Shown here in pieces: positions 2,732-59,813 of a stretch of 64,000 bases of DNA (the stretch's first letter is position 1; each line of letters opens with the position of its first letter). Origin of the DNA: Lophium mytilinum (Eukaryota); NCBI GenBank assembly GCA_010093605.1, contig MU004181.1, forward strand, positions 2,418,001 to 2,482,000, given 5' to 3'. A program made the position numbers and the translations under genes. The notes below the pieces were generated by a model, which saw only the letters and a program-made list of their open reading frames with translations, had not been told where the DNA came from and made no database searches.

Positions 2732-4955
2732 TCATGCCCATCCGAGGCTGTCGAGGAGGCGTTTCGTTTCTGGAGGCGGCATGCCGAGGGCGCCGAGTGC
2801 GCGCACCTGGGATCCGCGGCGTAGTTTCTGCAGGCCAATGGCGACCTTCCAGCTCTCTGCGTCGGCGATGATAAAGACGTATTTCTTGCCCTCGGGATCT
2901 CGGATGCTGGCGCGGAGTAGATGTTTGCCATTACGCTCGCCGGTCTGTGAGTAAGCATGTTAGTAACGATACATTGATTGACAAGGTAAGGAGCTGATAG
3001 CTTACCTCGACGAGCTTCATAGTCCAAGCCTTGATATCCCACTCGCGCTGTGCAACACCTCTAACATCATCGTCAATGAAGAGACCCTCGGTTGTGATCT
3101 TCAATATCAATCCATCAGTGACGGCACCGATACCGGCAACCAATTGAGCCACTGGCTTCGGGAACAAGTCGTTGAAGAGATAGACAGCCTTGATCTGGAT
3201 CTTGTCGGGGTCATTGGTACTGTATGCACCCCGTTGGCTGGGCGGAGGTGTGGTCCGAGATGTGCTTTGGGAGGGAGCATAGGAAGATTCAGAGTAGGTG
3301 GACGACTGAGGCTTCGCTGGACGCTTGGGTGTGTCGTAAGGACGGAAAGAGTGGGCGTCCACATCTTCGGTGCCGAGATATGACTTTGCGGAAGGTCGCT
3401 CGTAGTTCTTCTTGGGCGATGAAGTCACTTTGACGGTAGTCTTCAGAGGCGAGGAGCGAGTGGAAGTAACTGAGGGTGTAGAAGGACCTCGACCAAAGAC
3501 ATCCGTTCGCTCTCCGGCACTCATCCCATACGTCGCAGAGCGTCGTCCGGTCACGCTGGCTGCAAGCCGCTCTGCTGCAATCCGCTCTGCTTCGGCTTTC
3601 TTTGCTCTTTCTAGACGCTCTTTCTCCGCACGTTCGCGAGCAGCCTTGAGACGTTCGGCACGGATCTTGTCTGCTTGTTCTTTTGCTTCCTTGGCCGCAG
3701 CATCCGCCTTTTCTTGTGCTTCCTTGGCTGCAGCATCTGCTTTGTCCTTCTCAGCTTTGATCTTAGCTTCCTCAGCTCTGATCTTGGCTTCCGCAGCTCT
3801 GATTCTGGCTTCCTCTTCAGCTTGGAGAGCTCTGGCCTTAGCTTCCTCCTCTGCCTTGAGAGCTCTAGCCTTAGCCTCCACCTCAGCCCTCAGTCTCTGC
3901 TCGGCCTCCAGCTTCTCTCTGATCTCCTTCTCGATCCTGATCCGCGCTTCAGCTTCCCGCGCTTCTCGTTCTCGGGCATCATTCTCCCTCTTTTCCTTCT
4001 CCTTCGCCTGGCGCTCTCTAGCGATACGCTCTCTTGCTTCACGTTCACGTTGCTCCTTCTCCCGCGCCCGCATCTTTTCCCACTTCTCCTTTTCGGCTTG
4101 AGCACGAGCTTTTCGTTCAGCTTCGTCCTTCTTCTTCTGCTCCTCATCGCGCCGCCGCTTGGCTTCATCAGCTCGCTTCTTTTCTTCTTCCTTTTTCCGT
4201 GTTTCTTCGCGAGCATTTTCCCAGGCGGATGAGGCAGAGGGTGGAGGCTTTGACCATGAAGGCTTTGGCTCCGGCTTCGGTTCGGGCTTTGGTTCTGGCT
4301 TTGGTTCCGGCTCTGGTTCGGGGTCGGGCTCCGAGGGGGGTGGCGGCGGCCGGGGAGGTGGAGGTGGAGGTGGTGGTGGAGAAGGAGGACGAGGAGGAGG
4401 AGCTTGCTGGTGTTGATGTTGGTGAGAATGGGGCGGTGGCCCGTAGCCAGGCTGCGGTCCCCCTCCCGGTGGACTCTGGGGAGTGAAGCCAGCTCCCGGA
4501 TAGCCATTGGCGGACGGTCTTGCTCTCTGATAGCCTGGTGGGACCCCTCCAGCTGTTCCATGAGCGCCATCAGCATTCCCACCTCCCGCAGGCCTTCCAC
4601 CACCCCAAGCTCCTTCTCCTTGTGTCTTGCCCCAGGCCCAACCTAGTACTCCAACTGCGACTACGAGGATAATGACGCCCGTCCCGCCTGAAGCTACACC
4701 CTTGCTGATCATGGCAACCCATTGCTTCACGGTCGGCTCAATGACCTGCCACAAGCCCAGGGCAGCGAGCGTTGCAACTACTCCCGCCAGGAAGCTGTTT
4801 CGCTGGGGCGTCAGAGACGGCAAGTAGACGAAGCCGCCACCAGACGAGTGCGGCGGTATTATGAAGATGTCGTAGTTGCCTGGCGGTAGGCCACCTCCTC
4901 CCGTGGACTTAGGGTTGGCGCCATGCGGAGGCGGTGGAGGCGGAGGGCCGTCCAT
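2732..4955 (-). CDS. Fungal protein of unknown function: two N-terminal TM segments, Pro-rich/PEPK repeats, long charged coiled coil, C-terminal globular domain
   Basis: 674-aa ORF; intron about 2945-3005 (GTAAG...ACTAAC...CAG on minus) adds a last exon TGERNGKHLLRASIRDPEGKKYVFII...LLDSLGWA with stop at 2732-2734. Confidence 0.75.
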
Positions 4956-6327
4956 GGCAGGCGGTCGTGCGGCAGCCTCGAGGCCGCGTCAGAGTCGAGC
5001 GACGCTATAGGGAGCGGTGTTGAAGAGAGTGTCGCAGGAAGCCTGGAGGATGAGGTTGGCGTATTCGGGGTGCTGGGCCGGTGGGTCGGAGAAAAAGCAT
5101 AAGGGCAATTTCCAGCTTGGGGTCAGCGGGTCGCGAGATGACGAGCTGGGATGCGGCGAGTCAGGCGGTTACGGAGACATATAGATGGCAAAACAAGACA
5201 ATGCGGCGACCGGGAGCGCCAGTGTGCGAGCAGAGGGCGGAGGTGCTGTACAGAGGGCGGTGATGGCGGTGTGGTGGTGTGTTTACTGAGTGTTGATGGC
5301 CGTGTTTTGGCGAGCTAGCGGTGCAAACGGGAAAGCGATGGTGTGGGCCGGTCCGCAACTCGGTGCCAGTTTCCAAGGTTGATGCCCGGATATTCTCTCC
5401 CAGGTGCAACGCGGCAGCAGACGACGAGGCCTTAAGGCTGCTTTCCTGCGTGCTGGCTCTCGGTGGGCGGTGGTTTAGGCCTGGCGACGCGGGACGCGCT
5501 GTGCTTTTTGATCCCCGCGAGCGTCGGAAATCCAGTAGTGGCGCTGGGATTTGTTGTCTCCCACAACACGCGCAATCGGGCGAATGGCGCGGCCGCACGC
5601 AAGCTCTCGGCCTCTACTGGCCTGCACCGTGATATCGTGTGAAGCCGAGTCATCCAGTGCATCTCGTGGCCGAACGCGTCGTGCTGTGGTTCGTCCAAAG
5701 GGCGAGCCGGCCCACGCCTCTGTCTTTGCTAGACAGGCTCCCGCGAATCTGCATCATGCTGCAGCGGCACCCGGTCCGCTACCAAGCTGAGGGAATAGCC
5801 CGTTCTCGTGCCGCCATGCAGGCCTTTCCTTGACCGGCCCGCGTTACATGGCAAACGGCCGGAAGATAACTGGCCTTCCCGCGGGGCAATGGGGCACGCG
5901 CTGCTGTCTCGGAACCCTGGAGGAGTTTAGCAAGGCCGCCGAACAGGTCGACAGCCTCTGCTGTCTGAGACGCAGAACGAGTGGCTATAGCGCAGGTATC
6001 GATAGCTGCGGAGAATATATGTAAACAACGGCAACGGCGATGCGTTGGCGCTGCATGCGAAATTTATGCCCGGCTCGGCTAGCCCTGCTGAATCACGTTT
6101 TGATACCAGGGCCTCTCCCGCTCCGCCGTCATCGTTAACGGTCAACGGCTTGCCGTGACAGAGTGCTCGTCCAATTGTTGCACGCTGGCACGAGCATCAT
6201 CTCTGCTCGAGTCCTCGTGTGCGACGACGCGTCCCTTTCTGCCATCTGCCATGAGTTGGGACGATTGAGGACCATCATGGGTCCACACCGCCTGACTCCC
6301 TGGTGACACCGAGCTTGGCCGGCCGAT

Positions 6328-8210
6328 ATGGAAGAATACGAGCTTCACCCGCCAGCGCCGCCTGCGATCCCGCCCAGCGCCATGCCCGGCGACCTCATGG
6401 ACCAGCGAAGAGAAGCCTTGCTGAACAAAAAGACGGTCCGCAAGCTTGATCTAATTTTGCTGCCTTTTCTTGCCCTGTTATTCCTGTTCAACTCGCTCGA
6501 CAAGTCCAACGTGAGCCCCACCAGCTGCAGCCTCCAACATAAACTAACAGCTTCAGATTGGAAATGCCGAGTCCGCACATTTCACGTCTGATATAGGGCT
6601 GGATAAGGAGGACATCAATACAGCTGTTGCCCTCTTCTTTGCCTTCTTTGTCAGCCTGCAGCCTCTAGGGGCCGCCCTGGGCCGGAAGTATGGCATGGTA
6701 CGCTGGGTCCCGTCTTGCATGATAATATGGGGTGTTTGTACGGCACTACATGTCTGGGTGCGGTCGAAGTGGCAGCTGTTCATTCTGCGTATCATTATTG
6801 GGGCGTGTGAGGGTATGTAGCTCTCTCCGATCCATGAACAGCTGCTAACGATATTCACCAGCTGGCTTCTATCCTGTGACTGTAGTATATCTATCCGTAT
6901 TCTATACACGATTCGAATTCGCCCGTCGATTGAGCTTGTTCTATGGTCAAGCAGCTGTGGGAGGTGCCCTCGGCGGTATACTCTCTTACCTAGTCTTCTC
7001 CCAATTCGGCGACGAACGGACAAACCAGCCCGACGATACTGGCGACGAAGGTTGGAAATCCTGGCAGGTGCTCTTCCTGCTTGAAGGATGCTCCACGGTT
7101 ATAATCGCCTTCGCTGGCTACTTTTGGCTCCCACACAGTGCCAAGACAGCGTGGTTCTTGACGCCAGAAGAGCGAGAATGGGCAGAACTGCGCATCCAGC
7201 GTGATATTATAGGAGAGACCAGCCACCATTCTAAGGACGACCAAACGGAAGACGACGACGACGACGAAGAGCGCCCCGACACCTCCGGGTCCGAGTCTCA
7301 CGGCCTCCTAAACCCCACCGCTCCGACTTCCACGAAAGTCCTCACAGACGACCGCGGCATATCCCCCCACGACATCCTCTCCGCCCTCACGTGCCCCAAG
7401 ATCTACCACATCCTCATCGTCAACATTCTCTCCGCGATTCCCGCCATGGCCTTCCAAGTCTTCCTCCCTCTCGTGCTCGCCCCATTAACCTCGTCCACCG
7501 ACGACCCAAACGAACCCGGAAAAACAAACCCAGCCCTCACAAACCTCCTGACTGCACCCCCCTACATCTGCGGCGCCATCACCCTCTTCGCCTTCGCCGC
7601 CTACTCCGACCGCCACCGCAAGCGCCTCCCCCCGATCCTCGCCGGTCTCTGCCTCCTCCTCTCCGGCCTCGTCCTCGTGGTCGTGATGCCGCAGACGAAA
7701 GCATGGGCGATCCCGCGCTACCTCTCCCTCAACGTGCTGCTCAGCGGCACCTTCATCGCTAGCCCGCTCACCGTCGCGTGGATTTCCGGGAACACGCCGT
7801 CGCCCGGGAAGCGCGCGGTGCTGCTCGGTATCAACGGCTGGGGAAATCTGGCAGGCGTGTTCTCGGCGCTGCTGTTCAAGCCTAAGTACCAGAAGGAGGG
7901 GTATATCACCCCGTTCTGGTGGACGCTGGTTGCTGTCAGTGTGGCGGCGGCGGGTTATGTCGTTTTCTGGCTGAATCTGCGGAGGGGAAATGAGGCGCGG
8001 ATGGCGCTGGTGAGGAGTTGGGATGCTGATGATGTGGAGGCTGAGCGAAGAGATGGGAGGGGGCCGGTTGGGCGGAAGAGAGGAGTTGCGTTGGGGTTGG
8101 CGAGGTTGCTTGCAGAGGTCAAGGGGTTCGCGGGGTTGGCGGAGTGGGTCGAGAAGGCGAGTGAGGGGAGAGAGGGAGATGAGAGGGTTACGTTTGTTTG
8201 GGGGTATTAG
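6328..8210 (+). CDS. MFS transporter, allantoate permease (Dal5)/anion:cation symporter-like
   Basis: VRKLDLILLPFLALLFLFNSLDKSN|IGNA start motif, YLSVFYTRFEFARR, WQVLFLLEG, AWFLTPEER and many TM helices; introns about 6511-6557 and 6813-6861. Confidence 0.9.
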
Positions 8211-54154: not shown

Positions 54155-56014
54155 TGACGTCGCGGGTGAAGGAAGCGCTCACATCCCCACCAATGCTCAG
54201 GACAATTGTTAGTCAACACAAGGGTATAAGTATACGGGTGTTTGGTTGGGAGTGTAGCGTCGCGTAACTGCGCAGATCATGTCGGATGCTGCTCAGTTGC
54301 CAGCATCGCCGTCGATCCGAGCGAAGGGTTTTCCTCCCGCAGTGGCGATGCGCGCGAGCTATACAGCCAAGCCAGCAACGAGTGATGAAAGCAACGTTGG
54401 TGTAATCGGCGGTCCGGAGCAGCCAATGCTTGTCCTGTTATCCGTGTGCCAGGAGGTGTCGAGGCTGAAGAGCGGTCAAGGGGGCGTTCGGACAAGAGGT
54501 CTGTTCGGTGAATGGCGAGGAGGGGCAGCGGGAGAGCTTCGAGGCCGGAAGCTGGCGCGATGGTGCAGGGCGGGTATAGGCAAGTGGACGAGCAGAGAAT
54601 CGAGTGAATGGGCAAAGGGCGAGGTCGGTGTCGGGCGGGCGTGGCGGTGGCAGCGGTGGCATTGGACGCGCGCAGTGGTTTGGACGACACAAAGACCCGC
54701 CGAGGTTCTTCATTCTTAGGTGTGCGTAGCACTGTTCGCGGGCCTGCGTAGCGCTGTTCGACCGGCCAGAACTTGCACCACGGGCGCCGAATTAGTCAGG
54801 CCTGCCCCCGCAAGCTCGTCTCTACCCGCAGCAGCCATCGCGATGCCTGCACGCCCTGGTCGTCCAGGGCTTTGCCGCGTCAACGGCATGGCACAGAGAG
54901 CACCACATGCAGATAGCTTGCGTGAAGGCAGCCACAGTCGCACCATCCACGTTCCCGCCCGAAGCCTCAAAGCGCCCCGCACTGCTTGGAACGTCGACGT
55001 CAGGCCCCGGAGAACTCGCCAACACCAGTGCCTCGCAGACGCAGGCACTGCAGGCACAGCGTACAAATTCGCCGTGAGAACGCCGACACCTTCAGGCGTG
55101 CAATCTGATGAACAAATGACAGCGATGATCGTGTAATGTGCTAACCTGCGGCGCCATCCATCCCGCGTCGGCGACTATGGACGAAGCGCCTTCAGCCATT
55201 TCCCATTCAGCTTGAAGTCCGAAACGGCGTCCCAAGTCTGCAATGACGGTGCTCCATGCTATATGCCAGGGCCCTGGTCGCCCGGTGCGAACCCTATTCG
55301 CCTGCGGCCCGGCCATGACTGCCTCCAATGCGGCCGACCGTTCGCGATCGCCAGAGTTTCATGAACAAGAGCTTGGGTTTCGTGATACGCACGACGTGGG
55401 GGCCGAAGCACGATTAGATTATTAACATGGCAAAGGGATTGGAGATAAGTGCGTGCTCTTCTAGGGAATGACCCTGTTTTGGGCCTGGACGGACCATGTA
55501 CACACTTCACGGTTGCGCCATTCGGTGGTCCCTGTACTGTGCGTGCATTGCAGTCTAGGCGAGTTTGGCCTTCTAGAGTTACGTGGAGTGCATGCATACT
55601 TGATGGCTGCGTCGCGAATGCATTTACACTGTGACACGTCATCATATGATAGCCTGCGAAGGAATCTACTGCCATGTAGCAGACAAACACTGATGAGTAA
55701 CATTACAGACACCTCAAACGTTCAAGGAAACCAGGCTGAGGCTGCATAAGAATCAATTCGTCATTTAACCATATAAACTAGCCCGTTGCAACTGCATACT
55801 CATATATAAAAGAACGACTAGAAGAACGCGCCCACATGTCTCAGCGCCACACCACTACACTACCACAATCAGTTCCCTGCTGCAGTCGTGTGTCTCGTAT
55901 AACCCCCATTTGCGTGGTTGACCTGGTGGCAACACGTCAGCAGTGTTACTGTCTTCGCCAGTGGCCTTGCATATAAGCCTACCGCACCTGTATTACTCAC
56001 GTCTTTGAGGCCTC

Positions 56015-56962
56015 TCAAGAGGCATTATTGCCTACGTTGGCAGCGGCGGCCTCTTCCGCATTCTTGTATGTCTTGTAATCCGAGTAATGAACGTAAGGTC
56101 CGTAGCTGCCGTAGTCCTCCTGAACATGACCATCGCCAGCTTCGTCCCGCTTCTGCTTTTGGGCAGCTTCTTCCGCTGCAGATCGATACGCTCCGTACGA
56201 AGCATACGGCCTGTAGCTGCCATAGTACCCGAATGTTGATTCAGTCTTGGCGTTGTCTGCATTGTTGCGCTTCTGGTTTTGGGCCGTCTCTTCTGCTACA
56301 GATCGGTACGCTCCGTATGAGGCATACGGTCTATAGCTGCCGTAGTAGCCGAATGTTGTTTCAGTTTCGCCCTTGTCTGCAACGTCGCGCTTCTGCTCTT
56401 GAGTGCCTGATTCCGTCTCTGATGCCTCAGTCATAGCAGCGGCCATGCTGCTGCGCTTCTCATTCTGCGCGGCACCATCCATAGCTTTCGAGTAGCTTCC
56501 ATAATATGAGTATGGGCGATAAGTCCCGTAGACGCCAAACGTTGTTTCTGTCTTTTCAGTAGCCACATCACCGCGCTTCTTGCTCTGAACACCGTCTTTC
56601 GCTCCAGCTCGATACGCTCCGTACGAGGCGTACGGCCTGTAGCTGCCGTAGTAGCCGAACGTTGCTTCAGTCTCGGCGTTGTCCGCATCGTTGCGCTTCT
56701 GGGCCTGTTGCGTGGTAGCGTCTTCCGCGGATGAGCTGTAATGATCATAAGACTTGTATATTGCATATGGTCGGTACCCAGTGTAAGTGCCATACGCAGT
56801 GAAGGTAGTCGCCTCTTCTGATCTGGGGATAATACTCCATGCTCGTGAATCAGCTTCCCTTTTCAATGGACTGATGAGACCCCCACTAGCAAGTGGAGCA
56901 GCAATGACGGCTGTCGAGGCACCAATCACCAAGGCGGCGATGAGATCTCGCGTGAGATGCAT
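56015..56962 (-). CDS. Kex2-processed repeat protein / dikaritin RiPP precursor with Tyr-rich cores
   Basis: Signal peptide (MHLTRDLIAALVIGASTAVIA-AP), seven KR sites, 40-aa (120-nt) repeats with acidic leaders; three identical TFGYYGSYRPYASYGAYR cores and three variants. Confidence 0.88.
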   Translation of the reverse strand: MHLTRDLIAALVIGASTAVIAAPLASGGLISPLKREADSRAWSIIPRSEEATTFTAYGTYTGYRPYAIYKSYDHYSSSAEDATTQQAQKRNDADNAETEATFGYYGSYRPYASYGAYRAGAKDGVQSKKRGDVATEKTETTFGVYGTYRPYSYYGSYSKAMDGAAQNEKRSSMAAAMTEASETESGTQEQKRDVADKGETETTFGYYGSYRPYASYGAYRSVAEETAQNQKRNNADNAKTESTFGYYGSYRPYASYGAYRSAAEEAAQKQKRDEAGDGHVQEDYGSYGPYVHYSDYKTYKNAEEAAAANVGNNAS

Positions 56963-58739
56963 GACGAAAGTGGAGGAAGCTGAATTCTCTCAAACGATCT
57001 AAGAGATGAGGTAAGCGAAAGGCCAGAGACTCTGAGGAAGTAATCTGGGTTGGGAGAGCCAATATTTAAATGGAATACACATCTTGTAGTGATAGAATTC
57101 GATAGGGAAGTCGGCGATATGAGCACCGACACTACACAGGTATACAATTGATAACTCCATGATCCCACAGTGTCGTATGATGCTAATCGAGCAAAACTCA
57201 AATTGCAGCTCGCGGATTCTTTACCAGCTTCCAATGATTCCAGTGCTGTCCCACTGTTGAGTAACGCTTGGAGGCACCATCTAGCAATCAAAAGAGACAA
57301 AGTAATACCTCATAATAGACCTGAGATTAGCACGGACGTGGTGAAGTCTGTAGACCGTATTGGATAAATGATTGTGATACTGAGCAAAGACTTGGAATAT
57401 ACGGGAAAGGGTCCGTGGCTATCCTAAGAACCCTTCTTTTTAACTGGCAAAGCACGACAGAGACGTCCAAATTCACGCCACGATAACCAACGTACTAGCG
57501 GGAAGACGTCCCACGGAGCAATTGGCAAAATGCGGTGAAGATGCTGTGCCGCGGAAAATGGCCATGTGTTGAGCCCACAGGCAACGACAGGCGGATTAGG
57601 AAAGTGTCTGTCAACCTATGGTCTAGAATCAAGATACTTGCTGCGAGAACCCGAGTGTCTGTAACGTGTTCCCCATCAGGATGGACGTGTAGTGCTTTTC
57701 TTTGTCGAGAAACAAAGCGGAAGGTTGATGAGGGGGTCCGGCTTAGAGGATCTTGATCGTACCAATCGGATTGGAGATTTTCCGGTCCGGTGGTAGAGCT
57801 AGCTTTGACACCTCCTTCTATGAACCAACCACAAATTCTGAGAGCTCCAAATGTAGCACTGTAAGTCCGTTAGTGGACTCCTGACATCGGGATCCCGCAG
57901 CCATGCACTTGCTGATCCACAAAATCCCAGATGGCATCGCAAAACTCGGGAAGGCCGCGTGATCTTGTCTGCCTCCACTGCATCAGCTGGGACGGAGATC
58001 CCAGCGTGTCCGTGTACTACTACTGCTTGCAAGCGGCCGAACGTTGTCCCTGGCTTTTGTGGTTTTGAAGGTATATCGTAGGTATATCGAAGTACTGTTA
58101 TTAATCAAGAAGTCAGACGTTTCGCAAAGCTTACGGTAAGGTCAAGGAGGTAAGGACCTTAGTGCGCAAACACAAACCCCCCATTCTTTGCCCCGTCCTG
58201 ATTGCTAGGTACTTTCTCCTGGGTTCCGTGAGTCTAGTAACCAGTCAGTTAAGAGCGTCAAACATCTAGTTTAGATTTTGCTGTGACCAGACTGACATCC
58301 AAGGTATTGTTTTGGACAATCTATCAATGCACCACACGCAGTCATCAAGTAAACACAGGAATTGATGATCAGTCACTGCAGCTGGCAAGTTCTGCAAACT
58401 TTAGAGGATAAGAGCGTAAGGATTTGACTAGTTCGAAGTTTTGTACTATTGCACTCTTTGCTGAGTCTAGCAACGACAAACGTCAGCCCACGGAGATGGC
58501 GTTTCACACGGATGCTTGCAGGAGCGGTGAGAAAGTCATCAATTTCAATGAACTGGTGAATGACACTTGCGGTAATCTGTGCAATCGAACTGTTAGTCTT
58601 CTATACTTGCTTCGCTTTGTGCTCAAACATTGTTAGTAAAGCTCAGCAGATGCTTTATTCCTGTCTTTCCATTCATCCAACACAGCCCCACCCTTCACTT
58701 TCTATTTTGTTCTTGATACTCATGCAAGCTTCGACGTGA

Positions 58740-59813
58740 ATGTTCACCATGTTTGGTCCACTTGTAAGAAATTCTACCAAGTTCACACCAGTCTCTCAGG
58801 AAGAAGACCATGAGGCTCTACTACCGTGTCCTTCCTGTAGCGCCTCCTCTGAAATCAAACGATCACCTCGACCCCCCGGAACTTGGTACTTTTTGAAAAC
58901 ATACGCTCCTCTCGTCCTCTTGATATGTGTTTCGGGACTGTTTGGGGTATGGTTGGGCAACAACTGGGTTTTGAGACCCGACAGGTTTTGCATTCGGCAC
59001 ACTTCCCAGTATTGTATGACATACTGAATTTGACGTGGACCAAGAGTTAACATCCAAACATAGCCCCTATAGTCAAGGAAGTCGACCTTTACTATGAAAC
59101 GGTTCGCTTCAACGGCTCTTTGCTGAAAGCCAATATTTTCAGGGGGCCTGCGAGCCCCGAGGTCGATGCAGCATGGGAGTCATTGGGGGTGAATTGTAGG
59201 TATCAAGGCAATGCTTTTGACAGTCAAGATCACTGAACCTATATTCAGACCGCGCCGTGGTAGTTCCAGTAGATCAAGCAACTCAGTCCGGCATCCGTCC
59301 GGATCAAGTGAAAGTCAGTCAGCGCTACGGGGGTGGATTTCCTGCCAATGTGGAAGGTTTGCATCACTTGCACTGCTTGGTGAGTTCTTCTTCAAATTGC
59401 TGGACTATTCGTACTTGAGCCAATGTTAGTCATGTTTTCTAATCATTCCGATACAGAATCTCCTCCGTAAAGCGTTGACATGGAACTACGAATACTACCA
59501 CAAGCAGGGCGAGGGACCGTTCACGAATTCAGACTACGTGATTCGGTATCACGTCACGCACTGTTTGGACGTTCTCCGTCAACAGCTCATGTGCACTGTC
59601 GACGTTGGCGTACTAGGGCAGATCTGGTATCATCCCGAAGGCTATCCAATGGAGCCGTTTGTTGACTTTCACACAAATCACAAATGCCGGAACTTTGAGG
59701 CAGTAAGAGCATGGGCGGAGAAGCATCAGTTGCCTCCCGAAGAGAATGTCGATATGCAGCATTTCTATGAATTGCCGAAAGAGGGAGACAGGATTGTTTC
59801 CGAGATTCCATGA
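58740..59813 (+). CDS. DUF3328/UstYa-family oxidase (fungal RiPP cyclisation/oxidation enzyme)
   Basis: Exons 58740-59013, 59064-59195, 59249-59379 and 59457-59813 give 297 aa with an N-terminal TM helix, YSP, FNGS...FRGPASPEVDAAW, VEGLHHLHCLNLLRK, YHVTHCLDVLRQQLMCTVD and HKCRNFEAVRAWA (two HxxHC motifs). Confidence 0.93.

What the first reader, a model, noticed from the sequence alone, without database searches (positions are those of the whole stretch)
56066..56803. Strict aromatic-every-third-residue (Y-x-x)n code in all six cores
Seen in sequence: F54-Y57-Y60-Y63-Y66-Y69-Y72-Y75 in unit 1, F102-Y105-Y108-Y111-Y114-Y117 in unit 2, F142-Y145-Y148-Y151-Y154-Y157 in unit 3, the same in units 4 and 5, and Y284-Y287-Y290-Y293-Y296-Y299 in the last unit. 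The intervening residues vary (GS, GT, RP, AS, AI, KS, DH, VH, SD, KT) while the spacing does not. Inference: the spacing is the selected feature. It could direct iterative i/i+3 Tyr crosslinking into a polycyclic ladder made by a single oxidase, or trimming to short YxxY macrocycles, or a dityrosine-crosslinked or self-assembling extracellular material rather than a small toxin.
Basis: partly seen in the sequence, partly recalled or inferred. Interest (0 to 1): 0.72.

Follow-up and report, generated by a model that had tools for sequence, protein, structure and literature searches.

The report
Tyrosine-every-third fungal peptide with partner oxidase
A fungus makes a secreted protein whose peptides carry a tyrosine at every third position, next to a copper enzyme that probably stitches those tyrosines into stacked rings; the same gene pair recurs in many other fungi, and no product of it was found described.

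Summary
Observation confirmed. The minus-strand ORF 56015-56962 is a secreted Kex2-processed repeat protein with six Phe/Tyr-every-third runs; three cores are identical, so four are distinct. It lies head-to-head with one intact, spliced UstYa/DUF3328 copper-oxidase gene (58740-59813). A search with the enzyme alone recovered the pair: 18 of 20 metagenome locus clusters with enough upstream DNA have a divergent secreted (Tyr-x-x)n ORF. All 18 enzymes keep the four copper histidines; the 2 exceptions have lost some. Tyr-Tyr gaps are 3 in 122 of 148 cases and never 1, 2 or 4. Spacers are not free: they are mostly Gly and small polar residues, and identical across three window cores despite synonymous change. 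No third gene is conserved. Best reading: a dikaritin-type two-gene cassette in which the oxidase joins Tyr(i+3)-O to C-beta of residue i, as asperipin-2a chemistry suggests. Ring number and function are unshown. Genes beside the Aspergillus enzyme relatives are catalogued as KEP type 17, which may be the asperipin lineage (untested). A 60-nt in-frame intron can delete core 1.

The parts
56015..56962 (-). Precursor CDS, 315 aa (P0001): hydrophobic N-terminus, seven KR sites, six Phe/Tyr-every-third cores; single copy in the genome
   Evidence: no Pfam family
56900..56962 (-). Probable signal peptide, about aa 1-21 (inferred from hydropathy; no SignalP run)
   Evidence: hydropathy; conserved A21/P23
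56738..56803 (-). Core 1, F54-Y75, 8 rungs
56736..56795 (-). 60-nt in-frame GT..AG intron inside core 1; splicing removes Y57-Y75 (295-aa isoform)
   Evidence: joint 56735-56796, depth 19.9; retained form inferred only from bin arithmetic
56612..56659 (-). Core 2, F102-Y117
56492..56539 (-). Core 3, F142-Y157
56387..56452 (-). Aromatic-free KR-to-KR unit, aa 171-192
56306..56353 (-). Core 4, F204-Y219 (same residues as cores 2 and 5)
56186..56233 (-). Core 5, F244-Y259
56066..56113 (-). Core 6, Y284-Y299
56999..57308 (-). 310-nt intron in the precursor's 5' UTR
55923..56000 (-). 3' UTR intron with two donors (55923-56000 or 55923-55987)
57710..57974 (.). Gap between the two divergent transcript contigs: probable shared promoter (contigs cannot fix start sites)
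   Evidence: records 2 and 3
58740..59813 (+). UstYa/DUF3328 oxidase gene; exons 58740-59013, 59064-59195, 59249-59379, 59457-59813; one transmembrane-like helix, two HxxHC motifs; equals database protein P0013 from its second Met
   Evidence: (all three introns spliced in an RNA contig)

Best explanation
A two-gene, dikaritin-type ribosomal-peptide cassette. Shown: the precursor and the divergent UstYa gene are both spliced in an RNA run, and the pairing and the 3-residue Tyr period recur across fungi. Inferred: the precursor enters the secretory pathway, where the membrane-anchored dicopper DUF3328 enzyme oxidatively joins the phenol oxygen of Tyr(i+3) to the benzylic C-beta of the aromatic residue at i, and repeats this along the run. 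Kex2/Kex1-type proteases cut at KR to release cross-linked peptides. An N-terminal Phe can be the first rung because that position gives only a C-beta. Small spacers, mostly Gly first, let the ring close. Period 3 puts all Tyr on one face of a polyproline-II or 3-10-like backbone (structural reasoning, not modelled). I put i,i+3 cross-linking by this enzyme at about 0.7, and closure of most rungs into a fused ladder (up to 5 rings per core, 7 in core 1) at about 0.35.
For: Enzyme-first search: 61 loci, 39 clusters, 20 with at least 2,100 nt upstream. 18 of 20 have two or more i,i+3 Tyr pairs within 45 aa on the divergent strand, against 0 of 11 and 1 of 11 downstream; periods 2, 4 and 5 give 2, 2 and 3 of 20. 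All 18 enzymes keep both HxxHC motifs. The two exceptions are L054 (three of four His lost; its Tyr-rich neighbour is spaced mostly 4-6) and L069 (frameshift, stop, one His lost). In 18 gene models 162 of 166 Tyr have a partner at +/-3; there are 120 pairs against 31.5 +/- 4.5 in 5,000 shuffles, maximum 48. By inspection, none of the 14 stretches fetched around the genome's other UstYa genes holds such a secreted ORF. Phe stands just before 7 of 66 runs and after 0 of 66. Precedent, read as passages: asperipin-2a (core FYYTGY) has Tyr-to-beta-carbon ethers made sequentially by one DUF3328, AprY (PMC6514808), including Tyr-O to Phe-C-beta at a dicopper site (PMC12186524). The HxxHC pair is essential for activity and is the copper site (PMC12435403).
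Against: No product or activity was measured. The Phe polarity rests on two proteins (window 5, L033 2), and many runs start with Tyr. DUF3328 enzymes also halogenate and hydroxylate, and GigB links through another ring position (PMC10540207), so the bond type is open. L068 has only single YxxY pairs, and 5 of 143 gaps in the nine protein homologs are a +1 register shift, which fits separate rings better than one ladder. 15 of 18 small precursors have 0 or 1 KR/RR site, so Kex2 release is not general. The 20 clusters are related, and the two-exception match was noticed after the fact. Models were scored for Tyr count, and four (L035, L082, L085, L086) are probably incomplete or mis-spliced. 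19 of 39 clusters were dropped for short upstream DNA. The nine protein homologs were found by similarity to the query (circular for spacing) and their neighbours were not seen.
Confidence: 0.68

Rival explanations
1. The enzyme closes separate, non-fused YxxY rings (alternate rungs), and general proteases trim the cores to short mono- or bicyclic peptides like asperipin-2a. The long run just multiplies the units.
For: L068 carries five isolated YxxY pairs between Pro-rich linkers; 14 of 80 runs have only two Tyr; +1 register shifts occur in P0003, P0005 and P0008. The asperipin cluster also lacks a peptidase (PMC8703953).
Against: Runs of 5-16 Tyr keep one register; odd-numbered runs (3, 5, 7) are common; no peptidase or transporter is conserved in the flanks of 21 loci.
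Confidence: 0.35
2. The product is an extracellular structural or adhesive material. Tyr residues aligned on one face are cross-linked between chains (dityrosine or isodityrosine, as recalled for plant extensins) or stack into fibrils on the wall, spore or hyphal matrix, with DUF3328 as a dedicated cross-linker.
For: The enzyme is 41-69% identical to 61 of 62 selected relatives (89% to the closest) across several classes of filamentous ascomycetes. The pair sits in unrelated gene neighbourhoods with no export or tailoring genes. Small members have Pro/Thr-rich linkers and often no KR repeats. Unmodified structural KEP peptides exist (Rep1; PMC7329392).
Against: The characterised DUF3328 RiPP enzymes in the passages I read close rings within one peptide. 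Window cores are flanked by acidic helical-looking segments and KR sites, as in RiPP precursors. A single-sequence fold of one unit was uninformative (pLDDT 57). This rival can also be true downstream of the best explanation.
Confidence: 0.2
3. The peptides are secreted unmodified (signal, metal- or radical-scavenging peptides) and the neighbouring UstYa acts on something else.
For: About 78% of catalogued KEPs have no DUF3328 neighbour, and some DUF3328 proteins act on non-ribosomal substrates.
Against: Head-to-head linkage is kept in 18 of 20 clusters, and loss of copper ligands coincides with loss of the Tyr period.
Confidence: 0.08

Closest known systems
Asperipin-2a pathway (AprA precursor, AprY DUF3328; Aspergillus flavus)
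   Same: One DUF3328 acting more than once; Phe-first aromatic core; Tyr-O to C-beta ethers. One of its two rings spans Tyr to Tyr three residues apart (positions recalled, not read).
   Different: Asperipin has a 6-residue core with two rings, plus a transporter and a reductase. Here runs hold 6-8 aromatic residues (2-16 Tyr in relatives) at a fixed period of 3, with no accessory gene. Whether this enzyme is an AprY orthologue could not be tested: no AprY sequence was obtainable.
KEP type 17 of Umemura 2020 (PMC7329392, Table S2)
   Same: For 6 of 7 Aspergillus relatives of this enzyme, the accession one number away is listed as type 17 with DUF3328 nearby. A. flavus NRRL3357 has one, EED56824.1.
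   Different: The table gives no sequences, so the type-17 motif was not seen. The main-text parts read (1-5 of 8) do not discuss it. 12 accession prefixes beside non-Aspergillus relatives gave no row, nor did EOA88465 or a neighbour of OAL52345; I did not check that each of those genomes was in the survey.
Dikaritins generally (ustiloxin, phomopsin, epichloecyclin, victorin)
   Same: Signal peptide, KR-separated repeats, adjacent UstYa with two HxxHC motifs.
   Different: Those form one ring per short core and need further cluster enzymes (tyrosinase, methyltransferase, peptidases). None is seen next to this pair.
Plant cyclopeptide-alkaloid burpitides (selanine A, arabipeptin A)
   Same: Copper-enzyme Tyr-O to C-beta ethers, 17-membered rings, and a fused bicyclic case (PMC11253845).
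   Different: Different enzyme family (BURP), plants, one or two rings.

Membership tests
KEP (Kex2-processed repeat protein) | ER signal peptide | tested here: inconclusive
   Hydrophobic N-terminus shared with homologs; no signal-peptide predictor was available.
KEP (Kex2-processed repeat protein) | Three or more repeats separated by KR/RR | tested here: met
   Seven KR sites and six related cores. Most small relatives do not meet it: 15 of 18 have 0-1 site.
Dikaritin RiPP | UstYa/DUF3328 gene next to the precursor | tested here: met
   PF11807 at E 8e-23, about 1.8 kb ATG to ATG, divergent; kept in 18 of 20 clusters.
Dikaritin RiPP | Intact double HxxHC copper motif, membrane anchor | tested here: met
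   Both motifs in the spliced gene; helix 45-72 in the model; two motifs in 114 of 120 homologs.
Dikaritin RiPP | Tyr side-chain ether macrocycle in the product | not testable with these tools
   Needs MS/NMR.
Ustiloxin/phomopsin type | YxIx core and clustered tyrosinase/methyltransferase | tested here: not met
   The Tyr cores do not follow the YxIx pattern; Pfam scans of long ORFs in the flanks show no such genes.
Asperipin-2a type | FYYTGY core with clustered transporter and reductase | tested here: not met
   Cores differ; neighbours are a Zn2Cys6 factor, Sen15 and GLTP.
Asperipin-2a type | Enzyme orthologous to AprY | tested here: inconclusive
   57% identical to an A. coremiiformis protein; type-17 row in A. 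flavus; attempts to tie that accession to AFLA_041400 failed.

The most novel reading that the evidence does not exclude
One copper enzyme turns each core into a rigid ladder of 5-7 fused aryl-ether rings (up to about 15 in relative L033), programmed only by a Tyr-every-third code. The cassette is an old, widespread part of filamentous-ascomycete biology (wall, spore or signalling) and not a patchy toxin, with asperipin-2a perhaps a two-ring offshoot. In this fungus alternative splicing switches the longest ladder on or off.
Probability: 0.3. Interest if true: 0.85.

Novelty: new variant of a known kind. Interest (0 to 1): 0.62.

Why it matters
Few dikaritin products are known (five in a 2022 review, PMC10512285), and those in the passages I read carry one or two rings. 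A strict 3-residue Tyr code tied to one slowly evolving DUF3328 subfamily gives a minimal two-gene system for asking how often such an enzyme can iterate, and a possible tool for multiply stapled peptides. Enzyme relatives occur in many filamentous ascomycetes, including lichen, saprotrophic and plant-associated species. That makes the open question of what fungi use cyclic KEP peptides for (raised in PMC7329392) testable with a single knockout. Most small members have too few KR sites for KEP pipelines to list them.

Tried and rejected
Artefact or chance: rejected. A second copy in the genome: none by protein search; a motif search gave one hit inside a long unrelated ORF and one 9-nt repeat array. 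Collagen-like (Gly-X-Y)n: rejected, since Gly is not fixed in the window cores and runs are short. Shared promoter motif: best 7-mer in 12 of 18 regions against a null maximum of 10, and real flanks scored alike; inconclusive. Enzyme tree: only the quick tree finished, on 91 columns with intron residue in some rows; it puts 8 of 10 own-genome paralogue rows behind one long branch but resolves little and is not used as support. Single-sequence fold of one unit: pLDDT 57, no structure. Enzyme against PDB: no sequence match at E<=1 and no Foldseek match at E<=0.001. Atlas look-ups: all feature hits under 0.9, leads only. Profile search with the precursor alignment added only one protein. No enzyme relatives in viral or prokaryote collections. 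No run on record as RNA was listed; the one holder (X1) is a guessed RNA run and may come from the same source as the genome. Literature: ten full-text searches listed no paper describing a Tyr-every-third fungal precursor. The library lacks most subscription papers, including Nagano 2016 (not seen) and Chiang 2025 on AprY (not held). Le Marquer's KEP table is an external link and the CctR supplement was unreadable; these could already show the motif. Earlier scan notes: nothing.

Full report
Observation. The coordinates fall in a 315-aa minus-strand ORF, 56015-56962. Shuffling only the core residues reproduces the run in at most 22 of 20,000 trials, and nothing comparable occurs elsewhere in the window. 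Five runs open with Phe. Cores 2, 4 and 5 are identical in protein, so four cores are distinct. The protein has a hydrophobic N-terminus, seven KR sites, one aromatic-free unit and no Pfam match. It is single-copy in a 43-Mb, 49-contig genome.

Surroundings. The window is fungal. About 1.8 kb upstream, on the other strand, lies a four-exon UstYa/DUF3328 gene with two HxxHC motifs. It equals database protein P0013, which its source names as a Lophium mytilinum protein. Other neighbours are a Zn2Cys6 factor, Sen15, GLTP and a GH76; among the 14 ORFs or exons scanned there is no tyrosinase, methyltransferase or peptidase. Contigs of one run (X1, RNA by guess, but spliced) confirm all three enzyme introns and show the precursor transcribed with a 5' UTR intron and a 3' UTR intron. 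One contig also skips 56736-56795, a 60-nt GT..AG intron that deletes Y57-Y75 in frame. A retained form of similar depth (about 25 against 19.9) is only my arithmetic on depth bins; contigs measure levels poorly.

Related sequences, precursor first. Two searches with the precursor and one with its alignment gave nine distant proteins; the five with organism names are from Pleosporales. In them 148 of 152 Tyr have a partner three residues away and 114 of 143 gaps are 3, with five +1 shifts. This set is circular for spacing and has no genomic context.

Related sequences, enzyme first. Exon 4 of the enzyme found 61 metagenome loci, which collapse to 39 clusters; 19 were dropped for having under 2,100 nt upstream. 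Of the 20 left, 18 have two or more i,i+3 Tyr pairs within 45 residues on the divergent strand. Downstream controls gave 0 of 11 and 1 of 11. The upstream same-strand count, 8 of 20, is mostly the antisense shadow (7 of 8 overlap the precursor). Periods 2, 4 and 5 gave 2, 2 and 3 of 20. Gene models show small proteins (48-148 aa) with signal-like N-termini, runs of 2-16 Tyr and often Pro/Thr-rich linkers. 122 of 148 Tyr gaps are 3 and none is 1, 2 or 4; there are 120 pairs against 31.5 +/- 4.5 in 5,000 shuffles (models scored for Tyr count, four probably imperfect). All 18 partner enzymes keep four His. The two loci without the code are the two whose enzyme has lost His ligands: L054, whose Tyr-rich neighbour is spaced mostly 4-6, and the broken gene in L069. 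That match has a 1-in-190 chance by simple draw (my arithmetic, post hoc, related loci). Pfam scans of 118 ORFs around 21 loci show no shared third gene. By inspection, the 14 stretches around the genome's other UstYa genes hold no such secreted ORF; two carry different KR repeats. 129 database proteins match enzyme exon 4, from Dothideomycetes, Eurotiomycetes, Leotiomycetes, Lecanoromycetes and others by their source names (class assignments are mine); 114 of the 120 listed have both motifs.

What is conserved. Across the family it is the period. Spacers change, but within limits: Gly fills the first spacer in 87 of 122 steps and Thr, Ser, Asn or Asp the second in 87 of 122; no Phe, Trp or Tyr occurs there in the enzyme-found set. 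Within the window, cores 2, 4 and 5 have 4-7 synonymous and no amino-acid differences while their flanks have drifted to 11-15 of 24. 'Spacing alone is selected' therefore overstates it.

Mechanism. DUF3328 proteins are membrane-anchored dicopper oxidases whose HxxHC pair is essential (PMC12435403, passages). AprY alone makes both rings of asperipin-2a as Tyr-O to beta-carbon ethers on the core FYYTGY (PMC6514808, passages), one of them onto Phe (PMC12186524, passages). That the other ring joins the Tyr residues three apart is recalled. Extending this, each Tyr would give its oxygen to the C-beta three residues upstream, and only the first rung could be Phe. Phe does stand before 7 of 66 runs and after none, though in just two proteins. 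I rate enzyme-dependent i,i+3 cross-linking at about 0.7 and a near-complete fused ladder at about 0.35. Isolated YxxY pairs (L068) and register shifts favour separate rings; the wide conservation and bare two-gene layout leave a structural role open. No step beyond transcription and splicing is shown.

Comparison with what is known. The locus works like the asperipin-2a pathway and meets the testable dikaritin criteria; it fails the ustiloxin and asperipin core criteria. It is not wholly uncatalogued: beside 6 of 7 Aspergillus relatives of the enzyme lies a gene listed as KEP type 17 in Table S2 of PMC7329392 (main text parts 1-5 of 8 read; table parts 1 and 3 read, the rest searched by term). 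The table has no sequences. A. flavus has one type-17 gene, which might be the asperipin precursor itself (cluster AFLA_041370-041400, PMC8703953, passages); I could not settle this. Twelve accession prefixes beside non-Aspergillus relatives gave no row. Ten library searches listed no description of the Tyr-every-third code, but Nagano 2016 and Chiang 2025 were not available and could bear on it. Other papers were seen as passages only (PMC9632046, PMC12048977, PMC7099791, PMC9233826, PMC11253845, PMC10512285, PMC10540207, PMC11763372, PMC3410928); of PMC6339444 I saw passages, section 10 and supplement 2.

Verdict. A real, expressed feature and a new variant of a known kind: a widespread two-gene dikaritin-type cassette with a strict Tyr period, unknown product and a simple decisive test. 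Interest 0.62; 0.85 if the fused ladder is real (probability about 0.3).

Noticed in passing
window 56736-56795 (-): In-frame intron that removes core 1. In several relatives an intron instead interrupts a Gly codon after Tyr (phase 1), so this one may be newly made from coding sequence.
   Followed up: partly
L054/L055, enzyme near 5930-6350 and divergent ORF near 2900-4400 (-) in L054: Subfamily enzyme lacking three of four copper His, paired with a secreted Gln/Asn/Asp/Tyr-rich protein with Tyr mostly every 4-6 residues: possibly a repurposed pair.
   Followed up: partly
L069/L070 near 3300-3800 (L069): Pseudogene of the enzyme (frameshift, stop); no precursor seen in the 3.4 kb upstream.
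   Followed up: partly
L092 (G000:C2:1306800-1316700), about 3000-3614 (-): Another KR-repeat precursor, with five copies of a Trp-containing, Tyr-free core, beside a UstYa gene.
   Followed up: no
L095 (G000:C12:1798000-1807900), about 6500-7000 (+): Another KR-repeat precursor with four near-identical units, among three UstYa genes.
   Followed up: no
L071-L077 precursor ORFs: Closely related strains differ in unit number (78 versus 142 aa), showing recent gain or loss of a whole repeat.
   Followed up: no
L041, L045, L047, L049, L078 downstream of the enzyme: A 2EXR-family gene lies downstream of the enzyme in five loci; probably local synteny in one lineage.
   Followed up: no
L103 (G000:C24:269572-269628): 9-nt tandem repeat that reads as (His-Pro-Tyr)n on one strand and (Tyr-Gly-Trp)n on the other.
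   Followed up: partly
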